DNA of 64,000 nt from Minisyncoccia bacterium (lineage in GTDB: Bacteria; Patescibacteriota; Minisyncoccia; SW-4-49-11). The DNA lies in NCBI GenBank assembly GCA_044356725.1, contig JBIKVS010000002.1, forward strand, positions 19,264 to 83,263, given 5' to 3'. The translations under genes were made by a program, and so were the position numbers. This document shows, in pieces, positions 1 to 42,981 of this stretch; the stretch's first letter is position 1; the number at the start of each line of letters is the position of its first letter. The notes beneath the pieces were generated by a model, which was not told the origin of the DNA, did not search any database, and was given only the letters and a program-made list of their open reading frames with translations.

Positions 1-2283
1 TAAATAACCAATAGGGATATACTTTCTATTTTCAGACGAAGTACGAGGAATAGCAATATAAAAGCCATCATTAGGCTGTCTATCTTCAGTAAACAATGAT
101 GGTATTTCAGCTTTTTTCTGAGTTGCAATCTTTGTACTTTTAAGCCTCGTCTCTTTTACCAAATTGACCCTTTTCATAACTTCAGGCATTGCCTTTAGTT
201 GTTCTGGTGGACAATTTTTAAGCCAGAGGCAATATCTCGTTCCTCCATTTAAAAAATCATAGCCACCAAGGTACTGTTTAATCCAAAAACTAGCAGATTT
301 ATCATTTTGCTCTATAAAATCTTTATCCTCAGCTAATAAAATCAAATGCCCACCATCAGCAGGGACACTACCATTTACAAGTTTAGCCATTGAGCTTAAG
401 GGTTTTGATCGTCCTTCAATAAATAAATCTTTTGCATCAATCAAATATGGATTAATATTTTTAGCTTTGATTTCATGAGCTTCACCTCTAATATCTTCAT
501 ATTCAAAGATTCGTTTATTATTAGTATCATAACTAGCAAAGCCAATAATCACACAATAAACTGCCGCATTTCCTTTGGCTTCATTACTCCATCTAAAGGT
601 TCTATGAGCAAAATGAATCTTGATATTATAATTACTTAATAAATATCCCCATAGAATACTAGTCTGCTCTCCTTGTACAATTGAATTTGTGGATACAAAG
701 GCTACTTTGATATTGGTATCTTGTATATATTGAGCAGCTTTGATATACCAACCTGTGACATAGTCTAATGTTCCCCCACCTGCTTTTTTATCAAACAATT
801 GTATGATTTGGTCTCGTTGATTTTGTTTCATTATTTTAGCCCCAATAAAAGGTGGATTCCCTAAAATATAGGATAATTTATTTTTGGGGACTATATCTTC
901 CCAATTCACTTCTAGGGCATCTCCATTTATAATTTTGGCAGATTTTTTGAGTGGTAAGCGGATATAATATTGTCCAAATTCATTGCTGACTTGCATATTC
1001 ATTTGATGATCAATCAGCCACATTGCAACTTCAGCTATTCTAGCAGGGAATTCTTCATATTCAATTCCATAAAATTGGTCAACATTAATCCACATAATAG
1101 TACTAATGTCAAATACTCGCTGTCCTGTCTTATGCAAGGCTCTGAGAACTTCTATCTCTAATAATCTTAATTCTCGATAAGTTATGACAAGGAAATTACC
1201 ACAACCACAAGCAGGATCAAGGAAGGTTAGGGTGCTGAGTTTTTTATGAAATTCACCTAATTTATGTGAATTATCTTTGATACTTTCAAATTCTTTCCAT
1301 AAATCATCTAGGAATAGCGGTTTGATGAGTTTGAGAATATTGGTTTCACTGGTATAATGAGCTCCTAAATTTCTTCTTTCTTTTGGATTCATTACACTTT
1401 GGAACATTGATCCGAATATGGCTGGGGAGATTTGACTCCAGTTAATATAACAACAATTAAGTAATGCTTGTCGCATATTACTATCAAAACTTGCGGTTGG
1501 GAGTATTTCTTCAAAAAGTTTTCCATTAATATACGGAAAATCAGCAAGTTGTTCATCCAAATTGCTAAAACGATTTTCTTTGGGGGTATTCAATACCTGA
1601 AATAATTCTTGTAATTTAGCTGCTAAATCACTTCCGTCTTCTGCTGTCCGTTGTTCTAAATAATCTTGGAATTGTTGTTTATTAAAAATTGTGGTATCTT
1701 CTGAGAATAATAAGAATAGAATACGAACCAAATAAACTTCTAATGGATGTCCAGTATATCCAATTTCTTTTAATCTGTCATGAAGTTTTCCCATTAACTC
1801 AGCAGCCTTTATATTGGCAGGATCTTGCTCTTTATAAATTTTCTTTTGATATCCAAGCATATATCCAAAATGCTGAACATTGTCGATAAGTTTATTGAGT
1901 GTAAAATCTATAGTCTTATCTTCTTCTAAATCATATAATCTAAAATTCTCAAAATCACATACCAGAATATATTTGGGTAATTCGTGTTGTTTCAGTCCAT
2001 GAGTATATTCAATTGCTTGCTGATAGGCTTTATCGAGGTTTTTACCTCGACTTTTCATTTCAATTAAAATTGTTCCTTTCCAAAATAAATCAATATAGCC
2101 ATCTTTATCATCTAGTTTTTTTACTCTATGTTCAAAGGTTGATACTCGTTTACTACTAATCCCAAAAACATTAAAGAACTCAACTAAAAATGGTTTCGCA
2201 TCTGCTTCCTCATTGGTAGTATCTTCCCATTCTTTTGAAAATTTTAATGCTCTATCTTTTATTTCATTCCAGCTTAATGCCAT
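1..2283 (-). CDS. MmeI-family Type IIG (Type IIL) restriction-modification enzyme, N-terminal about 760 aa. The start codon is at 2283 and the C-terminus lies beyond the window start.
   Basis: Manual minus-strand translation from the ATG at 2283 gives MALSWNEIKDRALKFSKEWEDTTNEEADAKPFLVEFFNVFGI with no stops down to position 1. It shows a PD-(D/E)xK-type D..EMK nuclease motif (DLFWKGTILIEMKS), DPACGCGNFL (SAM-binding motif I of gamma-class N6-adenine methyltransferases, identical in MmeI), and the NPPF catalytic motif (LGNPPFIGAK). It is absent from the ORF track because it runs off the window edge. Confidence 0.75.
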   Translation of the reverse strand, partial: MALSWNEIKDRALKFSKEWEDTTNEEADAKPFLVEFFNVFGISSKRVSTFEHRVKKLDDKDGYIDLFWKGTILIEMKSRGKNLDKAYQQAIEYTHGLKQHELPKYILVCDFENFRLYDLEEDKTIDFTLNKLIDNVQHFGYMLGYQKKIYKEQDPANIKAAELMGKLHDRLKEIGYTGHPLEVYLVRILFLLFSEDTTIFNKQQFQDYLEQRTAEDGSDLAAKLQELFQVLNTPKENRFSNLDEQLADFPYINGKLFEEILPTASFDSNMRQALLNCCYINWSQISPAIFGSMFQSVMNPKERRNLGAHYTSETNILKLIKPLFLDDLWKEFESIKDNSHKLGEFHKKLSTLTFLDPACGCGNFLVITYRELRLLEIEVLRALHKTGQRVFDISTIMWINVDQFYGIEYEEFPARIAEVAMWLIDHQMNMQVSNEFGQYYIRLPLKKSAKIINGDALEVNWEDIVPKNKLSYILGNPPFIGAKIMKQNQRDQIIQLFDKKAGGGTLDYVTGWYIKAAQYIQDTNIKVAFVSTNSIVQGEQTSILWGYLLSNYNIKIHFAHRTFRWSNEAKGNAAVYCVIIGFASYDTNNKRIFEYEDIRGEAHEIKAKNINPYLIDAKDLFIEGRSKPLSSMAKLVNGSVPADGGHLILLAEDKDFIEQNDKSASFWIKQYLGGYDFLNGGTRYCLWLKNCPPEQLKAMPEVMKRVNLVKETRLKSTKIATQKKAEIPSLFTEDRQPNDGFYIAIPRTSSENRKYIPIGYL

Positions 2284-2303: not shown

Positions 2304-3254
2304 TTATTTAGCTGTTTTTTGTTGAGTGACTATTTCATAGGCCATAATGGCAGTGGCGGTGGCTACATTGAGTGATTGAATTTGTCCATACATTGGGATA
2401 TACCCGAGCATATCACAGCTAGATGCTATACTTGGTCTCAAGCCTTTGCCTTCACTACCCATTACTAAGACGGTTGGTAAATTATTAAAGTCATATTGAT
2501 AAAAAGGTGTAGCTTCAGGATTACATTCACTTCCTAATATCCAAAATCCTGTTTGTTTGAGAGTATTAAGAGCTGTGTTCATATTCCCAACTTGGACTAA
2601 GGGGACATATTTATCTGCTCCTGAGGCTACTTTAGAGGCTACTGGGGAGATAATTCCTCCGCGATGTTTTGGGAATAATACTCCAAGAGCTCCCATAGTT
2701 TCAGCTACTCGGATAATAGCTCCGATATTCTGCTGGTCAGTAATCTCATCTAGGGCTATGACTAGTCCACCTGGATTTTGTTCTAACTTAGCTTTGATAC
2801 TATATATCCAATCCTCTAATCCTAATAATGGCTCGGCTGTAATAAGGGCTACGATGCCTTGATGTATATAATCCCCTGCTTCGGATATTTCTTTTTCAAG
2901 TAGTCCTGTGATTTTTTGAATTGGGACATATTGTACTAGTGCTAAAGACTCTTTGGCCAGTTCCAAAATTTGCTCTAATCTCTTGTCTCTAACTTGATTT
3001 TCTCTAGTGATATAAATTTTCTGTACTCTCTTTGGTGATTTTTTGAGTACTTCTAAAACTGAGTTTTTACCATAGATATATTGGCTACTGTCTTTGTCTA
3101 TTAAAACTTTACCTTTACTTGGTTTGGCGATTTGATTGGCTGGATTTCGTCGATGTTTGGTAGTTGGCAAAGCTGACTTTGGTACATCTTTTCGGGGAGA
3201 TGGGCGATTTGACTTTGACTTAAGCTTTGACTTCTTCTTGGTAGGATATGGCAT
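2304..3254 (-). CDS. SpoU/TrmH-family RNA 2'-O-methyltransferase (RlmB-like) with a Lys/Arg-rich N-terminal extension
   Basis: The C-terminal half has SPOUT methyltransferase motifs (VIALDEITDQQNIGAIIRVAETMGA, LVMGSEGKGL, SLNVATATAIMAYE). The N-terminal 60 aa are a basic low-complexity region. Confidence 0.8.
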   Translation of the reverse strand: MPYPTKKKSKLKSKSNRPSPRKDVPKSALPTTKHRRNPANQIAKPSKGKVLIDKDSSQYIYGKNSVLEVLKKSPKRVQKIYITRENQVRDKRLEQILELAKESLALVQYVPIQKITGLLEKEISEAGDYIHQGIVALITAEPLLGLEDWIYSIKAKLEQNPGGLVIALDEITDQQNIGAIIRVAETMGALGVLFPKHRGGIISPVASKVASGADKYVPLVQVGNMNTALNTLKQTGFWILGSECNPEATPFYQYDFNNLPTVLVMGSEGKGLRPSIASSCDMLGYIPMYGQIQSLNVATATAIMAYEIVTQQKTAK

Positions 3255-3320: not shown

Positions 3321-3515
3321 ATTATGAATTATGAGTTGTTAATGATACTTATACAGGCTCATTATATTTTAGTCCTCCCTCCAAAGGGAGACAATATTTC
3401 AAGTTGCAAAATAATCCACCACCGGCACTTCGTGCCACCTCCTCCAAAGGAGGACAATATAATACAAAGTTCAGGCGACTAGTAGGTCGCCCCTCAACGA
3501 GGGGAATTTAATTCA
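3321..3515. repeat. Composite GC-rich palindromic repeat element, copy A. It is a member of a window-wide family.
   Basis: Contains gtcctccctccaaagggagacaa, ggcacttcgtgcc, cctcctccaaaggaggac, ggcgactagtaggtcgcc (3474-3491), and cccctcaacgaggggaat. It is preceded by an AT-rich attatgaattatgagttgtt segment. The same modules recur in copies B to J. Confidence 0.7.
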
Positions 3516-3520
3516 AAGTT

Positions 3521-5323
3521 CTAAGCATATATAACATTAGGATTATATTCTATTAACTCTTGTTGATTTCTTGAGAGATTATCAATTTTTTGCTTTAATT
3601 CAGTGATTTTTGATTGTTTAACATAGAAGTCATCAGGCATTTGATAATTATCTATGTATGCTTTTAAATCATTCAATGCTTTAATAATAGAACTATTATC
3701 TGTAAGTTCTATTTTCCCTAATCTACTCCTTATATATTCACTTTGACTATATATTCTATTTAATTCTTCTACGCTAGATGTGTTAATAGAAAATTCAGAA
3801 TTTATTGTATTATATTCACTACTATATTGGTCTCGATTATTAATTCTTAATTTTATATTTTCTAAAATTGGACTTAATCTAGATATGGCATCTCTGTCTT
3901 TAGTAAGATCCCATCTTGACTTAGATTTATTCTGTTGTAGGTAATCCTCTATTTGTTTTAGTTGCGCTATTCTCAAATTTCTTTCTTCTGGTACTCTAAA
4001 ATCACGAAGTGCTCTGATATTGCTTATAGCTTTCTTTAAGCTATTTAATTCAGTGTCTATAGATTTTGTATTATCTGTGATTTGACTTGCTAATTCTCCT
4101 AAAGTTTTTTGATAATCTTCTTGTAATTCAAAACCTTTATCCTTTAATCTAACTTCACAAGTGATTTCTGCTAATTTTCTTGATAATAAATCTATATTTA
4201 GAATATCAACAGACCTATCTCTTTCTAAATGAGAAGCTTCTTGATATGATGAATCTCCCTCAATACCTTCTACTTCTTGTTGTAAATTATTTTTACTATC
4301 TAAAAGTAAATTCAATTCTCTCTCTTTAGCTACCCCAGCAAAATATTGAATAGATCTTTCAGTTTGTTCTGAACCTGAATAAACTCCTGAATCTGTTTTA
4401 AGTTTTTTAATTCTATCCATTCCTGCAACATACCCGTATAATTCAAATATTCTAGATAGATTTTCATCAGATATATCAAACATATCTACTCCATCCACTG
4501 TCTTAGTAAATTCAGTTTTAGATAATGTTTCTTCTAATTCTCTTTGAGATTGTTCTAATAAAATAGGTTTGTCATTAGCTTCAGCTCCGATTTCTGTATA
4601 ATTGGTTTGTGCTTCTTTTAATTTCTCTTGTAGATCTCCTAATCTCTTTTGTATATCTGTATCTACTAATGCTTTAGTCTCTGCATCAAAAGCTGTTATT
4701 TTTGATTCTACCTCCTGTAAAGCTTCTTCATTGGCACTTACTCGTTTACGATATGTCGGAAGATTCTTAGCTTCTTCAGTGAATTCTTCAAATGTCTTTT
4801 TTGTATCAGGATTTAATTGTTTTAATTCACCATAAGCTTGTGCAATCATCTGTGAAAGTTGTAGTTGTCTTTCTTCTAATTTTATTTTTTTATCTTCCAA
4901 ACTAATTCTAGTTTTTTGTCTAGATTCTAAGGTTTTATTTTGTATTGCATCAAATACTTCTCCCTCCCCACTTTCTAATTGCTGGATTTGAGATTTAATG
5001 TCTTGTATTTCTAATCCTTGTAATGATAATCCGTCTTCATTCACTTCAAACTTTGGCTTTGACGCTTCCCCCTCTTGCTGAACTAAACTATCTAATTCAG
5101 CCGCAAGACTATCTTCTGGCACCTCAGTATCTACCCCTTCACCACCTTCAGATATCGCCTCGCCTTCAAGATTCTCTCCTACCAGCTCTGCAGTTAAATC
5201 TGCTGGACTCATTATCTCTGGCTCGGTTTGGGGTACAGATGATTGATTACTGACACCTCCTCCTTCTGGCAACTCTGGGCTGCTTAATATATGTGGGTTT
5301 TGGTCTGGATTGAAGCTATTCAT
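3521..5323 (-). CDS. Hypothetical protein with an acidic low-complexity N-terminus followed by a long coiled-coil (Gln/Glu/Lys-rich). It lies immediately downstream of ftsA.
   Basis: 600-aa ORF with no FtsZ GTPase signature (no GGGTGTG). It has heptad-like E/K/Q/L-rich segments. There is a 12-nt gap after the ftsA stop, so it is probably cotranscribed. Confidence 0.55.
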   Translation of the reverse strand: MNSFNPDQNPHILSSPELPEGGGVSNQSSVPQTEPEIMSPADLTAELVGENLEGEAISEGGEGVDTEVPEDSLAAELDSLVQQEGEASKPKFEVNEDGLSLQGLEIQDIKSQIQQLESGEGEVFDAIQNKTLESRQKTRISLEDKKIKLEERQLQLSQMIAQAYGELKQLNPDTKKTFEEFTEEAKNLPTYRKRVSANEEALQEVESKITAFDAETKALVDTDIQKRLGDLQEKLKEAQTNYTEIGAEANDKPILLEQSQRELEETLSKTEFTKTVDGVDMFDISDENLSRIFELYGYVAGMDRIKKLKTDSGVYSGSEQTERSIQYFAGVAKERELNLLLDSKNNLQQEVEGIEGDSSYQEASHLERDRSVDILNIDLLSRKLAEITCEVRLKDKGFELQEDYQKTLGELASQITDNTKSIDTELNSLKKAISNIRALRDFRVPEERNLRIAQLKQIEDYLQQNKSKSRWDLTKDRDAISRLSPILENIKLRINNRDQYSSEYNTINSEFSINTSSVEELNRIYSQSEYIRSRLGKIELTDNSSIIKALNDLKAYIDNYQMPDDFYVKQSKITELKQKIDNLSRNQQELIEYNPNVIYA

Positions 5324-5335
5324 ATTAATGATTTT

Positions 5336-6598
5336 TTAATCTGGGAATACCATTTTTAAGAGTTTTTGAATTGGATTTAATATTTTTGATGAACTTTTTT
5401 TCATTACATTAGATAGATTGTCTTTGGAGTCTTGTGAGTATTCTATATGGTCAAACTCTGATTTTATTAGTCCAACTAAATTAGCATAGATTGGATTATC
5501 TACATCAGCTATACTACCTTCTACTCCTTGAGGAGTGCCAATTTTGACTGGTAATTTAAGCTCTTGCTTAGCTAAATCAGCTATTGCTTTCAAATTCGCT
5601 CCTCCACCTACTAGCACTACTCCTGCTGGTAATAATCCATCTCTTTCAATTTTCTTTAATTCTTGAGTGATAAGTTCGAATATTTCTTTTGACCTAGCTT
5701 CGATTATACTAGCTATATAGGCTACTGGAAATATTCCTTCTTCTTCAGAATCAATTTTTGATAAATCAATTTTTAATTTAGCACTCTCTCCTAAGGATTT
5801 TTCTAGAGCTACTCCATATTTTAGTTTTATTTTCTCAGATACTTCAATAGATGTTCGAAGTCCAATAGCTAAATCATTAGTAATATGATTTGCTCCAACT
5901 GGAATTACTCCTATATGGATTATATGTCCTTCTTCATATACAGCTATTGAGGTTGTACCTGCTCCTAAGTCTATCACTGCTACTCCTAAATCTTTTTGTT
6001 TTTTGGTTAATACAGAATTAGCTGAGGCAATTATACCAATTTCTTGAGATGCTACTTTTAGTCCTAAATTATGGACACATTTTTCTAAACTTTTGATGGA
6101 TGATGAATTATTTTCTACAATTAAAGCCTCTACTTCTAATCTAATACCATTCATTCCGACTGGGTTCTTGATACCAGTTTCTTCATCTAAGGTATATGTT
6201 TTGGGAATTATATCTATAACTTCCTTATTTTGACTACTTGGTCCTGGATTGGCATTAGCAATAACTCTGTTTACATCTTCCTCTGTGACATCTCCATCTA
6301 TTTTGGAGACTGCTATTCTTTCTGAGGAAGAGTAACTTTTAATATGTACTCCATTAATTGAGATATGTATTTCTTTGATATCTTCCTCTACCATTTTAGA
6401 GGTGTATTCTAAAGCTTCACTAATACTATGGGTAGCATCTTGAATATCGCTCACCACACCTTTTTTCACTCCTTCACTAGGAGCTACTCCAAGCGCAATA
6501 ATAGAAGGTGTTTTATCTTCTCTTAGACGCTTTCCTATGGCCATCTTAGTAAAAGATGTTCCTACGTCTAATCCAACTATTATTTCATTTTGGGCCAT
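5336..6598 (-). CDS. ftsA: Cell division protein FtsA (actin-like ATPase)
   Basis: N-terminus IVGLDVGTSFTKMAIG (phosphate-1), DLGAGTTSIAVYEEGHIIHIGVIPVGANHITNDLA (phosphate-2 and adenosine motifs), and a C-terminal amphipathic tail. Confidence 0.85.
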   Translation of the reverse strand: MAQNEIIVGLDVGTSFTKMAIGKRLREDKTPSIIALGVAPSEGVKKGVVSDIQDATHSISEALEYTSKMVEEDIKEIHISINGVHIKSYSSSERIAVSKIDGDVTEEDVNRVIANANPGPSSQNKEVIDIIPKTYTLDEETGIKNPVGMNGIRLEVEALIVENNSSSIKSLEKCVHNLGLKVASQEIGIIASANSVLTKKQKDLGVAVIDLGAGTTSIAVYEEGHIIHIGVIPVGANHITNDLAIGLRTSIEVSEKIKLKYGVALEKSLGESAKLKIDLSKIDSEEEGIFPVAYIASIIEARSKEIFELITQELKKIERDGLLPAGVVLVGGGANLKAIADLAKQELKLPVKIGTPQGVEGSIADVDNPIYANLVGLIKSEFDHIEYSQDSKDNLSNVMKKSSSKILNPIQKLLKMVFPD

Positions 6599-6643: not shown

Positions 6644-7093
6644 TTAAGAAAATGAATAGTGTTGTTTAATAATTTTTAATAAATCTTCTTCTTTAGAATG
6701 CATCTCCTCATAATCTTCATCTGTCTGATGGTCATATCCTATCAAGTGACATAGCCCATGGACACATAAAGTGGCTATTTCATAGTCTATACGATGTCCT
6801 AATTCTTCAGACTGAGATAGAGCTTTATTATAACATATTACAATTTCTCCTAAAGTCATATCTTCCATAGAATAGTCTGACATCAGATTAAAAGATAAGA
6901 CATCGGTAACTTTGTCTTTATTTCTATATTGAGCATTCAAATTTTGAATAGTACTTTCTGATACAATTGCCACACTAACTGTTGTATCCTGAAATTTACG
7001 GTCAATATTTTTACTAAATATGTCTACACATAAAGCTATCAGATTATTATAATCTGGTATATTAGGAACTTGTGATTCAAATTCCAATATCAT
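6644..7093 (-). CDS. ybeY: rRNA maturation endoribonuclease YbeY
   Basis: HGLCHLIGYDHQTDEDYEEM matches the YbeY H-x3-H-x5-H zinc motif. The size is right at 149 aa. Confidence 0.85.
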   Translation of the reverse strand: MILEFESQVPNIPDYNNLIALCVDIFSKNIDRKFQDTTVSVAIVSESTIQNLNAQYRNKDKVTDVLSFNLMSDYSMEDMTLGEIVICYNKALSQSEELGHRIDYEIATLCVHGLCHLIGYDHQTDEDYEEMHSKEEDLLKIIKQHYSFS

Positions 7094-7096
7094 AAT

Positions 7097-7537
7097 TTAG
7101 GCTAATTTAGTTTGAACTAAATCTTTAATTTGATTACCGTCAGCTTTACCTTGAGCTTTACTTACTACTAGTTTCATCACTGAACCAAAGTTAGCAGAAT
7201 CTCCAAGCTCAGAGATACTAGCTTCCACTAATTGCTCTAGTTCTACATCAGTCAATTTAGCTGGCAAATATCTCTGTATAATCTCTAATTCAGACATTTC
7301 AGAGGCTACCAAGTCCTCTCTTCCTCCCTCTTGATAGGCTTGAATAGAGTCTTTTCTTTGTTTCTCTAGCTTGGACAAAACTTTAATCACATCGCTGTCT
7401 TCTAATGGACTCCCTTTATCAATTTCTGCATTTTTAAACTCTGAGCTTAGAGTTCTAAGTACAGTTTTGGCAAGGTCATCTCTATCTTTCATTGCCTGTA
7501 CCATATCTTTTTTAATTGTAAGAGCAATATTAGACAT
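7097..7537 (-). CDS. yqeY: GatB/YqeY domain protein
   Basis: 146 aa, colinear with the YqeY family (LSKLEKQRKDSIQAYQEGGREDL ... KADGNQIKDLVQTKL). It has the conserved rpsU-yqeY neighbourhood. Confidence 0.8.
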   Translation of the reverse strand: MSNIALTIKKDMVQAMKDRDDLAKTVLRTLSSEFKNAEIDKGSPLEDSDVIKVLSKLEKQRKDSIQAYQEGGREDLVASEMSELEIIQRYLPAKLTDVELEQLVEASISELGDSANFGSVMKLVVSKAQGKADGNQIKDLVQTKLA

Positions 7538-7548
7538 AAATCAATATA

Positions 7549-7818
7549 TTATTTGATACTAGCTTTAATTTTGAGCTTATACTTATTGGGTAATTTTTCT
7601 GTAGATCGAACTTTTCCCATTTTGACAAGCTTATCTTTTTCAGTTAAGAATTGTACTTTTTTGATTGCAGCTTGTCTTTGCTTAGTTTTAGACTTACCTT
7701 TAGTCAAAAATCTAGAGGCTCTAGCTTGGCTTAAAACTTCACTTTTTTGAATGCGTCGAGTAAATCGTCGAATCATAGATTCCACGTTTTCCTTTTCTCT
7801 CTTTATTACTTCTACCAT
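7549..7818 (-). CDS. rpsU: 30S ribosomal protein S21
   Basis: 89 aa, basic. The N-terminus MVEVIKREKENVESMIRRFTRRIQKSEVL resembles S21 (MPVIKVREN..ALRRFKR). A strong SD (AGGAGG) lies 8 nt upstream. Confidence 0.75.
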   Translation of the reverse strand: MVEVIKREKENVESMIRRFTRRIQKSEVLSQARASRFLTKGKSKTKQRQAAIKKVQFLTEKDKLVKMGKVRSTEKLPNKYKLKIKASIK

Positions 7819-20479: not shown

Positions 20480-21481
20480 TTATCTTTGATAACCTAATAC
20501 TCTCTTATACTTATCGAGACTATCGAGCATTATACCAGTACCTTTAGCGACACAGTATAATGGATCCTCCGCAATACTACAAGGCACACCTGTTGACTTA
20601 GAAATAAGCTCAGCTATATTCTTAAGCAATGCTCCCCCTCCGGTTATAACAATTCCTTTTTCTATGATATCACTAGCTAGTTCAGGTGGAGTTTCTTGCA
20701 GCACATTTTTGACTGTTTGAATTATTTCTCTTAGCTCGGCTTGCATAGCTATAGTTACCTCTTCTGAAGTAATTGTGACATTTTTAGGCAGACCAGTTAA
20801 GACATCTCGTCCTCTAATATCCATTGTGTCTGTTTCAATTGGAAGAGCTGAGCCAAGTTGTTTTTTGATATCCTCAGCGGTTTGCTCTCCTATAGCTAGG
20901 CTATATTTTTTCTTGATATGAGTCACAATGGCTTCTGTTAATTTATCTCCTGCTACTCTAGCTGAGGCAAAGGCAACAATTCCACCTAGAGAAATAACTC
21001 CTACTTCAGTTGTCCCTCCACCAATATCAATCACCATACTTCCTGAAGGAATATCAATAGGAATCCCAGCTCCTAGGGCTGCTAGAATTGGCTCTTTGAC
21101 TACATAGGCATTCTTTGCCCCTACATTTAGAGCAACTTCAATCACCGCTCTTTTTTCGGTAGAGGTAATGGAGGCAGGTACAGATATAATACAATCTGGT
21201 CTAAAAACTCTAATTCGCCCACTGACTTTATGAATTAAATACCCAATCAAAGCTTCAGTCATACGATAATCAGCAATTACCCCATCTCTAATTGGTCTGA
21301 CTGCTTTAATGCCATCTGGTGTTCGGCCAATCATTTCTTTAGCTTGATTACCAACTGCTAGAATAGAATTAGTATAAAGATCTACTGCTACTACAGATGG
21401 CTCATCCACTACAATACCTTTATTAGGCAAAAATACTAATACATTTGCTGTTCCTAAATCTATACCTATTCTTTTTACCAT
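20480..21481 (-). CDS. mreB: Rod shape-determining protein MreB
   Basis: IGIDLGTANVLVF, DIGGGTTEVGVISLGGIV, and 333 aa are canonical for MreB. Confidence 0.9.
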   Translation of the reverse strand: MVKRIGIDLGTANVLVFLPNKGIVVDEPSVVAVDLYTNSILAVGNQAKEMIGRTPDGIKAVRPIRDGVIADYRMTEALIGYLIHKVSGRIRVFRPDCIISVPASITSTEKRAVIEVALNVGAKNAYVVKEPILAALGAGIPIDIPSGSMVIDIGGGTTEVGVISLGGIVAFASARVAGDKLTEAIVTHIKKKYSLAIGEQTAEDIKKQLGSALPIETDTMDIRGRDVLTGLPKNVTITSEEVTIAMQAELREIIQTVKNVLQETPPELASDIIEKGIVITGGGALLKNIAELISKSTGVPCSIAEDPLYCVAKGTGIMLDSLDKYKRVLGYQR

Positions 21482-26330: not shown

Positions 26331-26646
26331 TTAAAAAAATTATGAATTGTAGGTTGTGAATGGTAAATTGTGAGTTATGAATTATTAACTGTAGGGCTTT
26401 TGTAAAGAGATATTAGGAGGGGGCGACCTTTCAGTCGCCTGAATCCTCCTCCGTCACCTACGGTGCCACCTCCCCCAAGGGAGGACAGTTCTTATCTTGT
26501 CTCCCTTTGGAGGGCGACAGAGACGGAAACTCAAATCACAAAACACTCCACCCCGTCCAGCATAGCTGTCCACCCCTCAAGAGGGGAATTTTAATACAAA
26601 AGACCCTAAAATTCATAATTTACAATTCACAATTTATAATTAAAGC
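26331..26646. repeat. Composite repeat element, copy C. It is the largest copy, with long AT-rich terminal inverted repeats, and serves as the archetype.
   Basis: The left end ttatgaattgtaggttgtgaatggtaaattgtgagttatgaatt is the inverse of the right end aaattcataatttacaattcacaatttataatt. Internal modules are ggcgacctttcagtcgcc (26422-26439), cctcctccgtcacctacggtgccacctcc, cccccaagggagg, tctccctttggaggg, and cacccctcaagaggggaat. The right end abuts the stop of the pilin-like gene. Confidence 0.75.
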
Positions 26647-27816
26647 CTACAGCCCAAATCTACCTCTAGTTACATTGAAGTTTTGTTGGACTTCTTGTAG
26701 TGTTAGACCTTTTCCCTTATAAACTAAAATATTAGCAATATTACCTTGATGAATATATCCTCCACCCCCATATCTTCCTATATTGAAATTAGTTCCCCAT
26801 GTACCAATATTCCCTGAATCATTAGCACTATTTATTAAAACACCATTAGAATAAAACTTAGTACTACCTGATATCCTTGAGATTACAATATTATACCAAG
26901 TATTAATACTATGTGTTGGTCCAGAAGTATAAAGTACTCCTCTAACTCCTATAGTTGGATTATAATATCTAAATCCATTATTAATACTAGTTCCAGTTGA
27001 TAGAGTCCCTCCATTAGCACCAAAATCCCAAATGTATCTATTTGCAACTATTTCTGTTTTATATACCCAAGCAGCAACAGAGAAATCGCCAGTTCCTGGG
27101 GAGATATTATTGGAAACTATTACATAATCATTTATCCCATCAAAAATAAGAGAACCTCCATTAGCAATATTATACCCGACTCCATTGATGAGAGTTCCAT
27201 GATTATTTCCCCCACTCAAATCAAACCAAGTTGTACCAGATCCAGGATAACTAGCTGGAATACCTGCATCTAAATTCAATATTAGACCATCTGTCACGAT
27301 TGGTAACTTTGGCACAGTAGCTGCTAAAGGAGTATTGGCATTACTAGTTTCTACACTAGGTAGGGGGTCATTTATTTTAATATCCACACCTCCTTCTCTT
27401 AATGCTTCTTTTAATCTAATACTAACAGTACTGCTAGCTTCATCTACTGCTATCTCATAACCCGAGCCACCTATATTATCGGTGTCATTTGGATCCTGTG
27501 GTATAGCTTGGATAAAATCAGGGACTAGAGATGATTTTAAATCGATAAATCCTGTACAAGAAGTAGCATCTGGGTCACAAATTTCCTGATAATCTCGGGT
27601 AAGACCTGCTGGATAGCTTCCTTTTTGTAACTTATATTGGGTAATAGTGCTTTCTAAAGTTTGAATATGAGTCTTTCTAATATCATTACGAGCATCAATA
27701 AATCTAGCATCAGCATTAAAATTTACTAAACCAATAGTTAGCAATATACCTATTAGGGTAATTACTAATAATACTTCTATCAGAGTAAATCCTTTATTTA
27801 CATTTTTAGTTTTCAT
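26647..27816 (-). CDS. Type IV prepilin-like N-terminus protein with a C-terminal LamG/ConA-like lectin domain
   Basis: MKTKNVNKGFTLIEVLLVITLIGILL is a class III signal with a G/F cleavage site and a hydrophobic helix. The C-terminus GDFSVAAWVYKTE...FDGINDYV is LamG-like. Confidence 0.7.
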   Translation of the reverse strand: MKTKNVNKGFTLIEVLLVITLIGILLTIGLVNFNADARFIDARNDIRKTHIQTLESTITQYKLQKGSYPAGLTRDYQEICDPDATSCTGFIDLKSSLVPDFIQAIPQDPNDTDNIGGSGYEIAVDEASSTVSIRLKEALREGGVDIKINDPLPSVETSNANTPLAATVPKLPIVTDGLILNLDAGIPASYPGSGTTWFDLSGGNNHGTLINGVGYNIANGGSLIFDGINDYVIVSNNISPGTGDFSVAAWVYKTEIVANRYIWDFGANGGTLSTGTSINNGFRYYNPTIGVRGVLYTSGPTHSINTWYNIVISRISGSTKFYSNGVLINSANDSGNIGTWGTNFNIGRYGGGGYIHQGNIANILVYKGKGLTLQEVQQNFNVTRGRFGL

Positions 27817-32698: not shown

Positions 32699-32740
32699 AA
32701 AGTGATTTATATTTATATTTTTATTATATCATATAAATTT

Positions 32741-32960
32741 TTAATTATGAATGGTGGATAATTTAATTATGAATTGTAAGTTGTGAATTATGAATGGCGC
32801 TTCTGTCTCCCTTCGGAGGGAGTACCCGTAGGGGGAGGGAGGACTTCAGACAACACAAGATAACCCCCTCCTAAACTAAAGTATAGGAGGGGCTTAAGAA
32901 CAATGTCGGCGAGGGCGCCGACTCTACGAACTTACAATTTAGAATTCATAATTATATTAT
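32741..32960. repeat. Composite repeat element, copy D, with AT-rich inverted ends, in the divergent ruvA/prx promoter region
   Basis: Has aattatgaattgtaagttgtgaattatgaatgg and aacttacaatttagaattcataatt ends. Internal modules are ctgtctcccttcggagggagtacccgtagggggagggaggac and aacaatgtcggcgagggcgccgactctacgaa, the latter in inverted orientation relative to copies H and I. Confidence 0.7.
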
Positions 32961-33021
32961 TTTATGCTATAATATATAAGGTATAATTTTATACCCGATT
33001 ATTAAATTAAATAAAATCATT

Positions 33022-33543
33022 ATGATGAAAGTAGGACAACCAGCTCCTGACTTTACCTTACAAGGTTATCAGGACGGAAAATTTGCAGAATATTCACTAT
33101 CTCAAATCACTGGTTCTGGGAAATGGGTGGTATTATTCTTCTATCCTCTAGACTTTACTTTTGTATGTCCAACAGAAATTACTGGATTTAACAAAAAAAT
33201 TGAGGAGTTTGATAAGTTAGGAGCTCAAGTATTAGGAGCTAGCGTAGATAGCGTTCACTCTCACAAAGCTTGGGTTGAGAAAGATTTAGGAAAATTAGAA
33301 TTCCCTCTTCTATCTGACTTCAAAAAAGAAACAGCTGATAGCTACAATATTCTAGTTGATGAAGATGGTGGTGTAGCCTTAAGAGGAACATTTATTATTG
33401 ACCCTGATGGAATCTTACGCTACTCAGTAGTTTCTGACTTGAATGTAGGACGAAGCATTGATGAGACTGTAAGAGTATTATCTGCTCTTAAAAATGGAGG
33501 TCTTTGCCCGGTAGAATGGGAAGAAGGAGAAGCTACCTTATAA
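33022..33543 (+). CDS. 2-Cys peroxiredoxin (AhpC/TSA family)
   Basis: WVVLFFYPLDFTFVCPTEI carries the peroxidatic-Cys motif. It is 173 aa. Confidence 0.85.
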   Translation: MMKVGQPAPDFTLQGYQDGKFAEYSLSQITGSGKWVVLFFYPLDFTFVCPTEITGFNKKIEEFDKLGAQVLGASVDSVHSHKAWVEKDLGKLEFPLLSDFKKETADSYNILVDEDGGVALRGTFIIDPDGILRYSVVSDLNVGRSIDETVRVLSALKNGGLCPVEWEEGEATL

Positions 33544-33562
33544 TAGCTATCCCTTAGATAAT

Positions 33563-33596
33563 AAAAAAGGCGGTTTTAAACCGTCTTTTTTATTTA
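33563..33596. terminator. Bidirectional rho-independent terminator between the convergent prx and glutaredoxin-like genes
   Basis: aaaaaa-GGCGG-ttttaaa-CCGTC-tttttt. The hairpin is flanked by A-run and T-run. Confidence 0.6.
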
Positions 33597-33615
33597 ATAT
33601 TCTTTAAACAGTGTA

Positions 33616-33861
33616 TTATGCTTCTATACCAACTAATTTAGCTAAAGTAGCTCTGTCATATCCAATTAGAATTTGACCATCTACATCAATAACAGGGACT
33701 CCCATCTGTCCGCTTTTTTCAACTAATTCATTACGCTTTTCTGCATCTGCAGCAACATTATATTCTACAAAAGGAACATTGTTTTCAGCTAAAAACTCCT
33801 TAGCTTGCTTACAAAAACCACAAGTTGGGGTGGAATAAATCTGTATATTTGGTGTGCTCAT
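33616..33861 (-). CDS. Glutaredoxin/NrdH-like small redox protein
   Basis: 81 aa. The CxxC motif is at the N-terminus (IYSTPTCGFCKQAKEFL) with a thioredoxin fold, and GVPVIDVDGQ matches the conserved cis-Pro region. Confidence 0.7.
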   Translation of the reverse strand: MSTPNIQIYSTPTCGFCKQAKEFLAENNVPFVEYNVAADAEKRNELVEKSGQMGVPVIDVDGQILIGYDRATLAKLVGIEA

Positions 33862-33902
33862 AATTTTAATAGTTAATTTAATACTCTTATATTATATCAC
33901 AA

Positions 33903-34646
33903 TTATTGTAAGAATTCATCTATATATGTCTTAAAGGTATCAATTGGTAAAGCTCCAGCAATTCTAATACCTTGAGTTAACTTCCCATCTTCCAGTTTAC
34001 CTATTATGAATCCTGGAGTTCCATTAACACCATTTTGATTAGCAAAATCCATATCAGCTTTTACTTTATCCAAAGTCTCTTCTTCTTTAAGACAGGTATC
34101 AAATTTATTAGTATCTAAGTCTTGAATCTCCCTTGCCAATTCATTAAGCTTGGATTCTTGCATACCCTCTCCTCCACTTTCAGTATTAGCAAAAATTAAA
34201 TCCACATATTCAAAGTAAGCTTGATTTCCTTTTTGCTCATACACACATTGAGCTGCTACAGCTTGTTTAGTAGCTAATGGATCATGAAAATCTAGGGGAT
34301 AATCTTTCCAAGCTAAGATTGCTTTATCTGTATTCACGTATTGTTCTATAATTTCCTTACGAGCCTCATCATGGAATTTTTTACAAAATGGACATTCAAA
34401 ATCACTAAATTCAATAATAGCAATTTGTGATTTTGACTTAGAACCCAGATAAGGCGTATCTTTTGATAAATCTACAGATATATTCCTAGCATCTACTGGG
34501 TCATCTTGTTCTTGCTGGGAATCTGTATTGGAAGCTGTATTATTGTTAGCTCGAGACTGTGCTCCATTATACAAAACTGCCGAAGCAATCATCATACCAG
34601 ATAAAAGAATCGAAGCGACTATTAATAGAATTGATTTATTTTCCAT
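33903..34646 (-). CDS. DsbA-like thiol:disulfide oxidoreductase with an N-terminal membrane anchor
   Basis: The CPFC active site lies in FSDFECPFCKKFHDEARK. An N-terminal TM segment is present. Confidence 0.7.
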   Translation of the reverse strand: MENKSILLIVASILLSGMMIASAVLYNGAQSRANNNTASNTDSQQEQDDPVDARNISVDLSKDTPYLGSKSKSQIAIIEFSDFECPFCKKFHDEARKEIIEQYVNTDKAILAWKDYPLDFHDPLATKQAVAAQCVYEQKGNQAYFEYVDLIFANTESGGEGMQESKLNELAREIQDLDTNKFDTCLKEEETLDKVKADMDFANQNGVNGTPGFIIGKLEDGKLTQGIRIAGALPIDTFKTYIDEFLQ

Positions 34647-36134: not shown

Positions 36135-36285
36135 TGTCCTCCTTTGGAGGAGGTGGCACGAAGTGCCGGAGGAGGACTAAGGCTGATGTTGTTGTTATAA
36201 AGTTTATTCTAATATTTTAGTATTTCAAGTATAGTCCTCCCTCCCCCTACGGGTACTCCCTCCAAAGGGAGACAAAATAAAGTTC
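36135..36285. repeat. Composite repeat element, copy E. It carries GC-rich modules only, with no AT-rich ends.
   Basis: gtcctcctttggaggaggtggcacgaagtgccggaggaggac is a nested palindrome. It is followed by gtcctccctccccctacgggtactccctccaaagggagacaaaataaa, the same module as in copies H and I. Confidence 0.7.
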
Positions 36286-38975: not shown

Positions 38976-40301
38976 TTATTTACTTTTTGAAATAATGTCT
39001 TTAGCAAGATATGGTCTTAATACCTTAGGGATTACAATACTACCATCAGCTTGCTGATAGTTTTCCATAATCGCAATTATAATTCTACCGATAGCAAAGA
39101 CAGTAGCATCATTCATATGTACAAAATTCTTTTTGCCATCGACATCTCTGTATCTGGTCTGCAATCTACGAGCTTGGAAATCTCCCATATAATCTGAAGT
39201 ATGCGTTTCACGATATTGATTTTGTCCAGGTAGCCAAGTTTCTATATCATAAGCTCTTATATCTGGAGTTCCCATATCAGCAGTACATTTTAGTACCACC
39301 TGATAAGGTAATTCTAATTGTTGCATAAGATATTCTTGAATAGCTACAATCAAATCTTGTTCTGCAAACCCTGAGTCCTTATCACTAAATACTTCAATTT
39401 CAATTTTATCAAATTGATGTAATCTCAAAATACCCTTCATATCCTTACCATAAGTACCAGCTTCTCGTCTAAAAGCAGTTGAATACCCCACATATCTAAG
39501 AGGTAGTTGTTTATAATCTAAAATTTCATCCATATGAAGTGGTCCCAAAGTATGCTCAGCACTACCAACCAACATCAATCCATCCTCAGTAGTCTGATAC
39601 CTATCATCAATTGGATCAAGCCTTCCCATTCTCTTCATAACTTCTGCCTTCATCAAAACTGGGGGAACAACAGGGGTATAGGCTTTATAAGATATATTTC
39701 CAAGCCCTGATTTATGAATAATTGCTTGAATAGTATTACTGTCTTTGAGTGTAGATAACACCCATTGCACTAAAGCAAATTGCAAAAGCACTAAATCTCC
39801 TTTTAGATAAGCAAATCTTGCCCCCGAGACTTCGGCTGACTTTTCAGTATCAATTAAATCCAAAGTTTTACCCAATTGCCAATGTTCCAAAGGAGTAAAG
39901 CTAAAGACTGGCTTTTCCCCAACTTGTCTTAATACCACATTCTCATCCTCAGACAATCCAATTGGAGTATCATCTGAATAAGTATTAGGAATTTTATACA
40001 TTAAGTCACTATAAATCTCATCAACTTTCACAAAATCTAAATCTAGCTGAGATAATTTATCTTTAATATCTTTACCTTTTTGAATTAAAGCCTTTTTCTC
40101 ATCATCTGTAAGAGTAGACATTTGCTTCATTTGCTCAGCAATAGAGTTTTTGTCAGTCCTCAAACTTTCAATTCTTTGTAATAAACCCTGCCTTTCCTCA
40201 AATACAGACATCAGATAATCTATATCTACTACTACTTTTTTATTCTTTGCAACTTCAATCAGAAAATCTCGATTGGCTTTAATATAAGATATATCTAACA
40301 T
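38976..40301 (-). CDS. serS: Seryl-tRNA synthetase
   Basis: Coiled-coil N-terminal arm. Class II motif 2 is FRREAGTYGKDMKGILRLHQFDKIE and motif 3 is GRIIIAIMEN. It is 441 aa. Confidence 0.9.
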   Translation of the reverse strand: MLDISYIKANRDFLIEVAKNKKVVVDIDYLMSVFEERQGLLQRIESLRTDKNSIAEQMKQMSTLTDDEKKALIQKGKDIKDKLSQLDLDFVKVDEIYSDLMYKIPNTYSDDTPIGLSEDENVVLRQVGEKPVFSFTPLEHWQLGKTLDLIDTEKSAEVSGARFAYLKGDLVLLQFALVQWVLSTLKDSNTIQAIIHKSGLGNISYKAYTPVVPPVLMKAEVMKRMGRLDPIDDRYQTTEDGLMLVGSAEHTLGPLHMDEILDYKQLPLRYVGYSTAFRREAGTYGKDMKGILRLHQFDKIEIEVFSDKDSGFAEQDLIVAIQEYLMQQLELPYQVVLKCTADMGTPDIRAYDIETWLPGQNQYRETHTSDYMGDFQARRLQTRYRDVDGKKNFVHMNDATVFAIGRIIIAIMENYQQADGSIVIPKVLRPYLAKDIISKSK

Positions 40302-40401
40302 ATTTATGCATAATTTTATATAATATTAAGTATATCACAGCTAAGCTATACACTCAACACAAATTATATGATATAATGAGACATATTATTAAGTAATAAA
40401 A

Positions 40402-42726: not shown

Positions 42727-42790
42727 TTCTATATTAAGTGTACTAATTCATAAAGTTAATAAACATATCGACATAGTATTTTAGCACTTT

Positions 42791-42845
42791 GAGTTCCTGG
42801 ACTCCTTGATGGGAGGTGGAACCGTAGGTGTCGTAAGAGTGCAGA
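42791..42845. repeat. Degenerate single-module copy (J) of the repeat family
   Basis: cctggactccttgatgggaggtggaaccgtaggtgtcg resembles the module cctcccttgggggaggtggcaccgtaggtgacgg of copies H and I. Confidence 0.4.
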
Positions 42846-42942
42846 TTTAAATTTCCCTCTATTCCTTAACTTAATAAAAAAATAAAGTCACCCGTAGTAG
42901 AAAAAATGTTTTCCCCTACCCCCTCCCTGTCCGTTCCCAACA

Positions 42943-42980: not shown

Positions 42981-42981
42981 G

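What the first reader, a model, noticed from the sequence alone, without database searches (positions are those of the whole stretch)
3521..6598. ftsA is followed by a 600-aa acidic coiled-coil protein instead of ftsZ
In most bacteria ftsA is immediately followed by ftsZ. Here the gene 12 nt downstream of ftsA encodes a protein with an acidic, Pro/Glu/Gly-rich N-terminus and several hundred residues of heptad-like coiled-coil. It has no tubulin/FtsZ GTPase signature (GGGTG[ST]G), and there is no ftsZ anywhere in the 64 kb. Upstream lies the conserved rpsU-yqeY-ybeY string.

The protein could be a lineage-specific division scaffold of the EzrA/ZapA/DivIVA functional class that has taken the ftsZ-adjacent position. 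That would be of interest for division in a reduced-genome lineage.
Basis: partly seen in the sequence, partly recalled or inferred. Interest (0 to 1): 0.5.

Follow-up and report, generated by a model that had tools for sequence, protein, structure and literature searches.

The report
Hypervariable coiled-coil gene beside ftsA
In one group of ultra-small freshwater bacteria (Paceibacteria), the division gene ftsA is followed not by ftsZ but by an orphan, fast-evolving coiled-coil scaffold gene whose parts are swapped between species. ftsZ is intact elsewhere in related genomes, so this gene is a candidate FtsA-linked accessory protein of unknown function and not a replacement for FtsZ.

Summary
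ftsA (5336-6598, minus strand) is followed after 12 nt by a 600-aa ORF, here called X (3521-5323). X is acidic, has no signal peptide or membrane segment, and has no FtsZ signature. The window contains no ftsZ.

X belongs to a tiny orphan family: 28 hits among 1.84 billion representative proteins, no Pfam, NCBIfam, PADLOC or PHROGs family, and no PDB relative by sequence or fold. Its layout is a short conserved N-terminal motif, a roughly 70-aa acidic disordered spacer, and confidently predicted helical bundles.

The ftsA-X pair, 3-20 nt apart, occurs in every sampled relative whose FtsA is at least 65% identical. Other Patescibacteria keep ftsA-ftsZ. The clade still has a canonical FtsZ with its C-terminal FtsA-binding peptide, unlinked from ftsA.

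The unexpected part is that X is hypervariable. Genomes with 98% nucleotide identity, or 99-100% identical FtsA, carry unrelated X modules. One breakpoint recurs near codon 255. dN/dS is 0.35-1.3, against 0.02-0.27 for neighbouring genes. Two distant homologues are not next to ftsA.

The "division scaffold" reading is plausible from operon structure only. The cassette exchange points to a conflict-driven or weakly constrained role. Interest is moderate.

The parts
5336..6598 (-). ftsA, 420 aa, canonical. It has the 1C (SHS2) insert and a C-terminal tail ...KILNPIQKLLKMVFPD that looks like the usual amphipathic membrane-targeting helix (that last point is inferred from the sequence).
   Evidence: TIGR01174 2.9e-99, 332.6 bits against cutoff 175.9; PF14450 and PF02491.
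5324..5335 (-). 12-nt ftsA-X spacer. There is no room for a promoter, so the two genes are presumably co-transcribed. In the window the two ORFs are in the same frame (TAA plus 4 codons). That is not conserved in relatives, whose gaps are 3, 9, 11, 13, 18 or 20 nt.
5258..5323 (-). X residues 1-22: conserved N-terminal short motif MN(N/S)FNPDQNPHILSSPExxEGG. Its core is hydrophobic-x-x-P-E-x(1-2)-E-G-G. Variants are MRLFENSIVYAPEQEGG and LFNPETEG.
   Evidence: Alignments. Nucleotide similarity to L018 (flanks 87% nt) runs from ftsA into X only as far as window 5264, i.e. the motif only.
5063..5257 (-). X residues about 23-87: acidic disordered spacer. The sequence is not conserved, but the composition is.
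   Evidence: pLDDT below 50 for residues 1-69. In 37 members: length 50-111 aa (mean 70), 26% acidic, net charge per residue -0.21.
4553..5062 (-). X residues 88-257: conserved N-module. It consists of a beta-hairpin (KFEVxEDGLSLQG) followed by long helices. Family-invariant residues are G98-L99-S100, T216 (FDxET), and Y242/E248/D251 (YTExGAExxDK).
   Evidence: invariant in 37 of 37 members; pLDDT 85-95
3521..4552 (-). X residues 258-600 plus stop codon: exchangeable C-module. The window has the short 'type A' form ending in YNPNVIYA. The near-identical genome L046 has an unrelated longer 'type B' form here.
   Evidence: Window vs L046: 98.4% nt identity down to 4553, nothing detectable from 4553 to 3490, then 97.1% from 3490. 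The types are defined in the alignment.
3490..3504 (-). GC-rich hairpin (CCCCTCGTTGAGGGG) 17 nt after the X stop codon. It marks the distal edge of the exchanged cassette and may be a terminator.
3438..3453 (-). One copy of a dispersed GC-rich hairpin repeat (CCTCCTTTGGAGGAGG core) in the 266-nt X-rlmB spacer.
   Evidence: 5 copies in the window against 0.43 expected; no Rfam match.
6644..7818 (-). The rpsU-yqeY-ybeY string directly upstream of ftsA. The ybeY-ftsA gap is 45 nt.
2304..3254 (-). rlmB (SpoU-type 23S rRNA methyltransferase), the next gene after X. Beyond it lies a strain-variable region; in the window this is an MmeI-type restriction-modification gene at <1-2283.

Best explanation
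X is a lineage-restricted cytoplasmic scaffold or hub protein made from the same transcript as FtsA. This Paceibacteria clade has moved ftsA into a hisS-rpsU-yqeY-ybeY-ftsA string and left ftsZ elsewhere.

X has three parts:
1. A short conserved N-terminal motif, inferred to be a docking peptide for a partner, with FtsA the obvious candidate.
2. An acidic disordered spacer of about 70 aa, conserved in composition but not in sequence.
3. About 500 residues of helical bundles, inferred to drive self-assembly.

FtsZ keeps its FtsA-binding C-terminal peptide, so X does not replace FtsZ. X most likely acts as an accessory adaptor that links membrane-bound FtsA to something else at the division site.

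What is shown: the gene structure, the operon-like spacing, the family's restriction to this clade, the modular architecture, presence in every sampled clade member, and evolution by exchange of modules between species with dN/dS of 0.35-1.3. What is inferred: cytoplasmic location, FtsA binding, self-assembly, and any role in division.
For: - Spacing: ftsA stop to X start is 3-20 nt in 14 lineages. The pair is present in 9 of 9 GTDB species with FtsA at least 70% identical, and in 7 metagenomic contexts. X is always intact at 590-769 aa.
- Breakpoints: when X is wholly replaced (L017 vs L016), nucleotide similarity ends at the last base of ftsA (its stop codon, position 7263). The incoming allele takes the same position, 9 and 18 nt after that stop.
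- Location: no signal peptide or TM segment.
- Structure: confident helical models for both allele types, pLDDT 81 and 83.
- Spacer: its acidity is conserved across 37 members despite sequence turnover.
- Conserved core: invariant motifs occur in all alleles.
- Architecture: it parallels PopZ, which has an N-terminal client-binding region, a 78-aa acidic IDR and a helical oligomerisation domain (PMC9512792).
- FtsZ: the clade's FtsZ is canonical, with its C-terminal peptide.
Against: - No physical link to FtsA was tested.
- All 14 neighbouring genes are also syntenic in this clade, so adjacency is weak evidence.
- Genomes with 99-100% identical FtsA carry X alleles only 25-48% identical to each other, and one of them (L016) lacks the PExxEGG motif. 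No FtsA-X co-variation is therefore visible.
- dN/dS of about 1.2-1.3 in the N-module, and exchange of X between species, are unusual for a housekeeping divisome component.
- Distant homologues P0035 and P0039 are not next to ftsA.
Confidence: 0.4

Rival explanations
1. X is a conflict-interface protein: a target, sensor or decoy in phage-host or symbiont-host interactions. It may be exposed or exported by a non-classical route. On this reading it lies after ftsA only because that site borders a strain-variable island, and it has no role in division.
For: - Cassette replacement occurs between genomes that are 98% identical, and between genomes with identical FtsA.
- The breakpoint recurs near codon 255 in two independent pairs.
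- An X-to-rlmB tract shares 90% nt identity between species whose flanks are only 70-75% identical.
- dN/dS is 1.31 and 1.15 in the N-module, against 0.02-0.27 in neighbouring genes (Fisher p = 1e-4 and 2e-11).
- The region past rlmB varies between strains: MmeI or Type ISP restriction-modification genes, IS elements, pilin-like genes. The MmeI target-recognition domain is also swapped between the window and L046.
- Distant homologue P0035 sits beside two Wzy_C genes and a restriction-modification/ABC cluster.
- The composition is acidic and almost free of Cys.
Against: - No signal peptide, TM segment, lipobox or sorting motif.
- No match to PADLOC defence models or PHROGs.
- X is present and intact in every clade member, not present in some and absent in others.
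- It is tightly coupled to ftsA, with no promoter space.
- No immunity-like ORF travels with the cassette, which ends 31 nt after the stop codon.
Confidence: 0.3
2. X is a general cytoskeletal or polar-organising coiled-coil protein (like PopZ, DivIVA or Ccrp) used for cell shape, polarity or an attachment structure, and not specifically for FtsA-dependent division.
For: - The architecture is a short motif, an acidic IDR and a helical assembly domain (PopZ comparison from PMC9512792).
- Coiled-coil scaffolds tolerate rapid sequence change.
- mreB is also present in the window at 20480-21481.
- Distant homologues are unlinked from ftsA.
Against: - No homology to any such family.
- Nothing in the data points to a pole or to cell shape.
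- Tolerance of change does not explain inter-species allele exchange, or dN/dS at or above 1 between genomes whose dS is only 0.02-0.1.
Confidence: 0.2
3. X is a weakly constrained, nearly neutral filler ORF with no important function. Its variability would reflect only relaxed selection plus recombination in the conserved flanks.
For: dN/dS is near 1 in two close pairs. The family is tiny and lineage-restricted.
Against: - The ORF is intact at 576-769 aa in 37 full-length family members, and none of the sequenced loci carries a frameshift or internal stop.
- More than 20 positions are invariant across alleles that are otherwise about 25% identical.
- Spacer composition is conserved.
- AF2 models from only 14-17 sequences are confident.
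- dN/dS is 0.35-0.5 in two other pairs.
Confidence: 0.07

Closest known systems
PopZ (polar organising protein Z, Caulobacterales)
   Same: Both have a three-part hub architecture: a short N-terminal partner-binding region, an acidic disordered spacer, and a helical C-terminal self-assembly region. The spacers are similar in size and charge (PopZ 78 aa, net charge per residue -0.28; X mean 70 aa, -0.21). In both, spacer composition is conserved while the sequence drifts (PMC9512792).
   Different: - No sequence or profile match.
- X is 3-4 times longer, with about 500 helical residues and small beta-hairpins.
- The X spacer is Gly-rich (12%) and Pro-poor (4%); the PopZ spacer is 23-29% Pro.
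- X sits in an ftsA operon and is hypervariable, with allele exchange.
EzrA, ZapA, ZapB, DivIVA, GpsB, SepF (FtsZ/FtsA-associated coiled-coil division proteins)
   Same: They are cytoplasmic-side, largely helical or coiled-coil proteins that work with the FtsZ/FtsA ring. X is of similar size to EzrA (about 560 aa) and lies at a division locus.
   Different: - No Pfam or NCBIfam hit to any of them at E <= 0.1 for X, or at E <= 0.01 for 17 family members.
- X has no N-terminal TM anchor, which EzrA has.
- Those families are conserved housekeeping genes and are not exchanged as cassettes.
PilN, partner of the FtsA-like ATPase PilM
   Same: The gene order matches: an actin-fold FtsA/PilM-family gene is followed immediately by a gene whose product begins with a short conserved peptide and continues as coiled coil. 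From memory, the PilN N-terminal INLLP peptide docks on PilM. X has I-L-S-S-P or I-V-Y-A-P with the same I-x-x-x-P spacing. This is a lead and was not tested.
   Different: X has no TM helix after the peptide. The upstream gene is a true FtsA with the 1C domain, not PilM: TIGR01174 scores 332 bits and pilM 27 bits. There is no pilO/P/Q context. Docking was not tested.
SMC/MukB/Rad50 coiled-coil arms
   Same: Long antiparallel helical segments. JGI labels two family members (P0010, P0022) 'chromosome segregation ATPase'. There are weak sub-threshold hits to SMC, JetC and LmuB coiled-coil regions.
   Different: X has no ABC ATPase head and no hinge. The SMC score is 19.5 bits against a cutoff of 729.4. 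The JGI label is a coiled-coil artefact.
Mosaic or cassette-type variable genes (flagellin, pilin, pneumococcal PspA, restriction-enzyme target-recognition domains)
   Same: A conserved N-terminal part joined to exchangeable distal modules; ancient allele classes shared across species by recombination; elevated dN/dS.
   Different: Those proteins are exported or bind DNA. X has no export signal and no recognisable binding domain, and it is co-transcribed with a division gene.

Membership tests
FtsA (the upstream gene) | Actin-fold ATPase with the SHS2 (1C) insert; scores above the TIGR01174 equivalog cutoff | tested here: met
   332.6 bits against cutoff 175.85; PF02491 3e-22; PF14450 6e-36.
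FtsZ/tubulin (X as a divergent FtsZ) | Tubulin GTPase domain with the GGGTG[ST]G signature | tested here: not met
   No motif in any frame of the window. No Tubulin or FtsZ_C hit for X. X is all-helical with no Rossmann-like domain.
EzrA | Match to the EzrA family profile | tested here: not met
   No hit at E <= 0.1 for X or at E <= 0.01 for any of 17 family members.
EzrA | N-terminal transmembrane anchor | tested here: not met
   The N-terminus is acidic and disordered. The maximum 19-residue hydropathy is 0.66.
EzrA | Spectrin-like repeat arch fold | tested here: not met
DivIVA/GpsB, ZapA, ZapB, SepF | Match to the respective Pfam/NCBIfam profiles | tested here: not met
   Only Snapin_Pallidin (19 bits, below cutoff), DUF3053 and SMC_prok_A (19.5 bits) are listed. 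No family recurs among the 17 members.
SMC / 'chromosome segregation ATPase' (JGI label on P0010 and P0022) | Walker A/B ABC head domains and a hinge flanking the coiled coil | tested here: not met
   TIGR02169 scores 19.5 bits against cutoff 729.4, and the match lies only over coiled-coil positions 676-843. No globular head appears in the models.
PopZ | Homology to the PopZ family profile | tested here: not met
   No Pfam hit.
PopZ | Architecture: N-terminal client region, acidic IDR, helical oligomerisation domain | tested here: met
   compared with PMC9512792. This is an architectural likeness only.
ClyA/AhlB-type alpha-pore-forming toxins | Helical bundle with a hydrophobic beta-tongue/head; a significant structural match | tested here: not met
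   Best Foldseek hit is AhlB at E = 0.39, probability 0.35, TM-score 0.13-0.26. X has no hydrophobic segment.
Polymorphic toxin / CDI-type cassettes | Variable C-terminal toxin domain followed by a cognate immunity gene | tested here: not met
   The exchanged segment ends 31 nt after the stop codon with no extra ORF. Both C-modules are helical scaffold, not enzyme-like.
Known anti-phage defence proteins (PADLOC) or phage protein families (PHROGs) | Significant profile match | tested here: not met
   Only coiled-coil noise: JetC E = 0.006 at 12 bits, LmuB E = 0.05, and one short PHROG of unknown function.
PilN-like partner of a PilM/FtsA-family ATPase | N-terminal peptide that docks on the ATPase | not testable with these tools
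PilN-like partner of a PilM/FtsA-family ATPase | Transmembrane helix after the N-terminal peptide | tested here: not met
   No hydrophobic segment.

The most novel reading that the evidence does not exclude
X is a core FtsA-docked divisome adaptor that is itself the object of an arms race. For example, it could be the target, or a guard or decoy, for phage-encoded division inhibitors. On this reading a clade of ultra-small bacteria keeps several ancient X cassettes and trades them between species by recombination at a fixed joint near codon 255. It would be the first case of a division-machinery component that evolves like a surface antigen.
Probability: 0.15. Interest if true: 0.8.

Novelty: new variant of a known kind. 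Interest (0 to 1): 0.5.

Why it matters
Cell division in Patescibacteria (CPR) has hardly been studied, and these organisms are mostly uncultured. This clade has broken the near-universal ftsA-ftsZ linkage. It has installed an orphan modular scaffold gene that is tightly coupled to ftsA, present in every sampled member, and as variable as an antigen gene.

If X binds FtsA, it is a new type of divisome adaptor, and possibly a window on phage or host pressure acting on division. If X does not bind FtsA, the locus is still a clean natural example of cassette exchange in a core gene. Two discrete allele classes occur in genomes 98% identical, and Lake Mendota metagenomes carry this clade, so a time series from that lake could follow the alleles.

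The result is also a caution for annotation. The 'chromosome segregation ATPase' label on some family members is a coiled-coil artefact.

Tried and rejected
- **FtsA + X co-fold as one chain.** The in-frame DNA reference was rejected because of the stop codon. No interface test was therefore possible.
- **Foldseek against AFDB50.** The library was unavailable.
- **Defence or phage origin.** PADLOC and PHROGs gave nothing meaningful.
- **Internal sequence repeats.** These were suggested by the three beta-hairpin-plus-helix units. hhalign between segments gave probabilities below 6%.
- **A false lead that the clade lacks FtsZ.** A protein search with the L003 FtsZ fragment listed only hits at 98-99% and at or below 69% identity. 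The metagenome scan then found ten loci at 82-100% identity, so the gap was a search artefact.
- **ftsZ position in the window's own genome.** In relative L057, ftsZ lies next to orthologues of window 33022-34646. The window has a synteny break there and no ftsZ.
- **Stop-codon read-through fusion of FtsA and X.** The two ORFs are in frame in the window, but the frame relation is not conserved in relatives.
- **Rfam on the X-rlmB spacer.** No match.
- **Literature.** Searches for Patescibacteria with FtsA/FtsZ/coiled-coil terms, the dcw cluster or the divisome found nothing on this gene.
Full report
**1. The observation**

The ORF table shows ftsA at 5336-6598 (-) and a 600-aa ORF, here called X, at 3521-5323 (-). 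The gap between them is 12 nt.

The upstream gene is a true FtsA. It scores 332.6 bits on TIGR01174 against a cutoff of 175.9 and has the SHS2_FTSA and FtsA domains. Further upstream are ybeY, yqeY and rpsU. Downstream is rlmB.

X is acidic, with pI about 4.3. Its first 100 residues carry net charge -21. It has no hydrophobic segment: the highest 19-residue hydropathy is 0.66.

No FtsZ signature occurs in any frame of the window. tblastn with this clade's own FtsZ gives nothing better than E = 8.4 across the 64 kb. The remaining window genes are housekeeping genes, and they include mreB.

The N-terminal spacer is acidic and Gly-rich but not Pro-rich.

**2. What X is**

X has no Pfam or NCBIfam family. 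The only listed hits are sub-threshold coiled-coil noise: Snapin at 19 bits and SMC at 19.5 bits against a cutoff of 729. No family recurs when 17 members are scanned individually. PADLOC and PHROGs give nothing meaningful.

The family is very small.
- A word-indexed search of 5.8 billion protein clusters found 26 relatives.
- A profile search of 1.84 billion representatives found 28.
- A profile search of PDB sequences found none at E <= 1.

AlphaFold2 gives confident models for both allele types.
- The window's allele has pLDDT 81. Residues 1-69 are disordered, followed by long helices with small beta-hairpins.
- The longer allele type has pLDDT 83, with residues 1-85 disordered.

X is therefore an orphan. 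Alignments and the models show four parts:
1. An N-terminal motif, MNNFNPDQNPHILSSPExxEGG, with the variant MRLFENSIVYAPEQEGG.
2. An acidic disordered spacer. It is 50-111 aa long (mean 70), 26% D/E, with net charge per residue -0.21. Its composition is conserved in 37 members while its sequence is not.
3. A conserved N-module, residues 88-257. Its invariant residues are G98-L99-S100, T216, and Y242/E248/D251.
4. A C-terminal half that comes in at least two very different forms. The short 'type A' form ends in YNPxVIY, as in the window. 'Type B' is longer.

No internal sequence repeats are detectable.

**3. Is the gene pair conserved?**

All seven metagenomic contexts retrieved for homologues show ftsA followed immediately by X.

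I then scanned one genome per GTDB species with the window's FtsA. That returned 30 loci, which I screened with an X profile and an FtsZ query.
- All 9 loci with FtsA at least 70% identical have X as the next gene. Their records call them Paceibacteria, Parcubacteria or Minisyncoccia MAGs.
- All 20 loci with FtsA at or below 40% identical have ftsZ as the next gene. These include other Patescibacteria such as Roizmanbacteria and Saccharibacteria-labelled MAGs.
- One intermediate lineage (L019, FtsA about 60% identical) keeps hisS-yqeY-ybeY-ftsA. That string is followed by convergent unrelated genes, with neither X nor ftsZ.

A more divergent X (P0032) is also preceded by an ftsA 65% identical to the window's, with a 3-nt gap. 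Across the clade the ftsA-X gap is 3-20 nt.

There are two caveats.
- The whole parA-parB-ruvX-GT2-galT-radC-lepB-hisS-rpsU-yqeY-ybeY-ftsA-X block is syntenic in this clade. Adjacency alone therefore says little about function.
- Two distant homologues with usable context are not next to ftsA. P0035 lies between a CYTH gene and two Wzy_C genes. P0039 is on a contig with 52% GC.

In addition, the type-B C-module occurs fused to other domains in an unrelated context in P0037.

**4. Where is ftsZ?**

In relative L003/L055, ftsZ lies about 9.4 kb downstream of X. A metagenome scan found ten loci whose FtsZ is 82-100% identical to that one.

The protein is canonical. It has the GGGTGSG signature and ends in ...FELPAFIRNKLNKK, the conserved C-terminal peptide that binds FtsA in model bacteria (the binding role is established knowledge).

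In L057, ftsZ sits beside a pilin-like gene next to orthologues of window 33022-34646. Those orthologues are 83-99% identical at the protein level. The window has a synteny break at that point.

FtsZ has therefore been unlinked from ftsA in this clade, not lost. X holds ftsZ's position and not its role. I could not see the window's own ftsZ, because only 64 kb of that genome is available.

**5. The unexpected finding: X is hypervariable and mosaic**

Per-gene comparison with 12 relatives shows X as the outlier among 14 genes. In L046, 11 of the 13 neighbouring proteins are 98-100% identical (GT2 is 95%). X aligns over only 53% of its length, at 81% identity.

At the DNA level:
- The window and L046 are 98.4% identical from 15324 down to 4553.
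- No similarity is detectable from 4553 to 3490, which is X codons 258-600 plus 31 nt.
- Identity is 97.1% again from 3490.
- Against L018, whose flanks are 87% identical, similarity stops at 5264. Only the N-terminal motif is shared.

FtsA identity and X identity do not track each other.

| Comparison | FtsA identity | X identity |
|---|---|---|
| L005, L016, L017 (pairwise) | 99-100% | 25-48% |
| L016 vs L013 | 75% | 70% |
| Window vs L017 | 70% | 59% |

blastn between these loci gives the breakpoints.
- L017 vs L016: similarity ends at the ftsA stop codon and resumes after X.
- L017 vs L005: the breakpoint is at X codon about 252. That matches the window/L046 joint, just after the invariant YTExGAExxDK motif.
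- L016 vs L013: a tract from X through rlmB is 90% identical, while the flanks are 70-75% identical.

Selection estimates (Nei-Gojobori) are below.

| Pair and region | dN/dS | Nonsyn : syn differences | Fisher p |
|---|---|---|---|
| Window/L046, X N-module | 1.31 | 12.5 : 2.5 | 1e-4 vs neighbours |
| L017/L005, X N-module | 1.15 | 63 : 15 | 2e-11 vs ftsA |
| L007/L009, X full length | 0.50 | 180 : 84 | not tested |
| L015/L020, X full length | 0.35 | 10 : 7 | not tested |
| Neighbouring genes | 0.02-0.27 | | |

Each allele recurs on several independent contigs: 8 for P0001, 4 for P0013, 12 for P0010 and 15 for P0023. Assembly chimeras are therefore unlikely.

Yet X is intact at 590-769 aa in every locus, and more than 20 positions are invariant across alleles. 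It behaves as a core gene with exchangeable modules.

**6. Interpretation**

The best-supported reading (confidence about 0.4) is that X is a cytoplasmic modular scaffold or hub co-transcribed with FtsA. It has a docking motif, an acidic spacer and a helical assembly domain. It most likely acts as an FtsA-associated accessory adaptor and does not substitute for FtsZ.

The architecture parallels PopZ, which has an N-terminal client-binding region, a 78-aa acidic IDR and a helical oligomerisation domain (PMC9512792). There is no homology to PopZ.

The gene order, and an N-terminal I-x-x-x-P peptide, also recall PilM-PilN. That comparison is from memory and untested, and X lacks PilN's TM helix.

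The main rival (about 0.3) is that X is a conflict interface with phage or host, sitting at the edge of a strain-variable island. In favour:
- cassette exchange;
- dN/dS near 1;
- variable restriction-modification, IS and pilin genes just beyond rlmB;
- a parallel swap of the MmeI target-recognition domain between the window and L046.

Against this rival:
- no export signal;
- no defence-family match;
- universal presence in the clade;
- tight coupling to ftsA.

The two readings are not exclusive. A division-linked protein could itself be the contested target; that is the novel case, with probability about 0.15.

Two lesser rivals remain: a general polar or cytoskeletal organiser (about 0.2, overlapping with the best reading), and a nearly neutral ORF (about 0.07).

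**7. Novelty and verdict**

X is an uncharacterised, lineage-restricted family and a member of no known division, SMC, toxin or defence family. Its kind, a modular coiled-coil scaffold, is familiar. The operon link to ftsA combined with antigen-like cassette evolution is new.

However, the division role rests on operon structure alone, ftsZ is present in the lineage, and the evolutionary behaviour argues against a standard housekeeping scaffold. Interest is 0.5.

Noticed in passing
window 3438-3453(-), 26469-26484(-), 36138-36153(+), 62520-62535(+), 63022-63037(+): A dispersed GC-rich hairpin element lies in intergenic regions. Its core is tgtCCTCC(T/C)TTGG(A/G)GGAGGtggcac...gtgccggaggaggact. 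Three copies share further upstream hairpin modules. There are 5 copies against 0.43 expected by chance. The copy tested has no Rfam match. It could be a REP/MITE-like repeat or a terminator family.
   Followed up: partly
window 1-2283 (-), gene runs off the window start: This is an MmeI-family restriction-modification gene with N, helicase-spacer, MTase and TRD domains. Nucleotide similarity to the 97-98% identical genome L046 ends at window 401, inside the target-recognition domain. That is a second cassette swap within 5 kb of the X swap.
   Followed up: partly
window ~32700-33020; L057 1520-4596: There is a synteny break here. In close relative L057, the AhpC/thioredoxin-like orthologues of window 33022-34646 are followed by a 489-aa pilin-like gene and then ftsZ. 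In the window they are followed by ruvA and rpiB. GC skew is flat over 32-36 kb.
   Followed up: partly
window 5324-5338: ftsA and X are in the same reading frame, separated only by TAA plus four codons (K-I-I-N). Relatives with 9- or 18-nt gaps are also in frame, but those with 11-, 13- or 20-nt gaps are not. Programmed read-through is therefore unlikely.
   Followed up: yes
window 40000-44000: This segment has higher GC (0.40 against about 0.33) and reversed GC skew. It carries a 774-aa protein with a Gly_rich_2 domain (40402-42726, +) and ORFs with no family match, and may be an island. A pilin-like gene (N_methyl + Laminin_G_3) lies at 26647-27816.
   Followed up: no
L045 8001-11090 (P0037): A 1029-aa protein carries the type-B C-terminal module of X at its N-terminus. 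The module is fused to about 45-aa helical repeats and a large C-terminal domain with no family match. The context is unrelated (V-type ATPase, P-type ATPase). The module can therefore exist independently of X.
   Followed up: partly
tool behaviour, vs 63: The word-indexed protein search with a 196-aa FtsZ fragment listed no relatives between 69% and 98% identity. The metagenome DNA scan found ten loci at 82-100% identity (nine of them at 82-89%).
   Followed up: yes
L007 12335-15603; L009 13730-14908; L010 13936-17253: The segment after X/rlmB differs between species of the clade. L007 has IS1595/rve transposase genes plus a pilin-like Gly_rich_2 gene. L009 has a pilin-like gene. L010 has a Type ISP restriction enzyme. 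L003 has tig-comEC...ftsZ.
   Followed up: no
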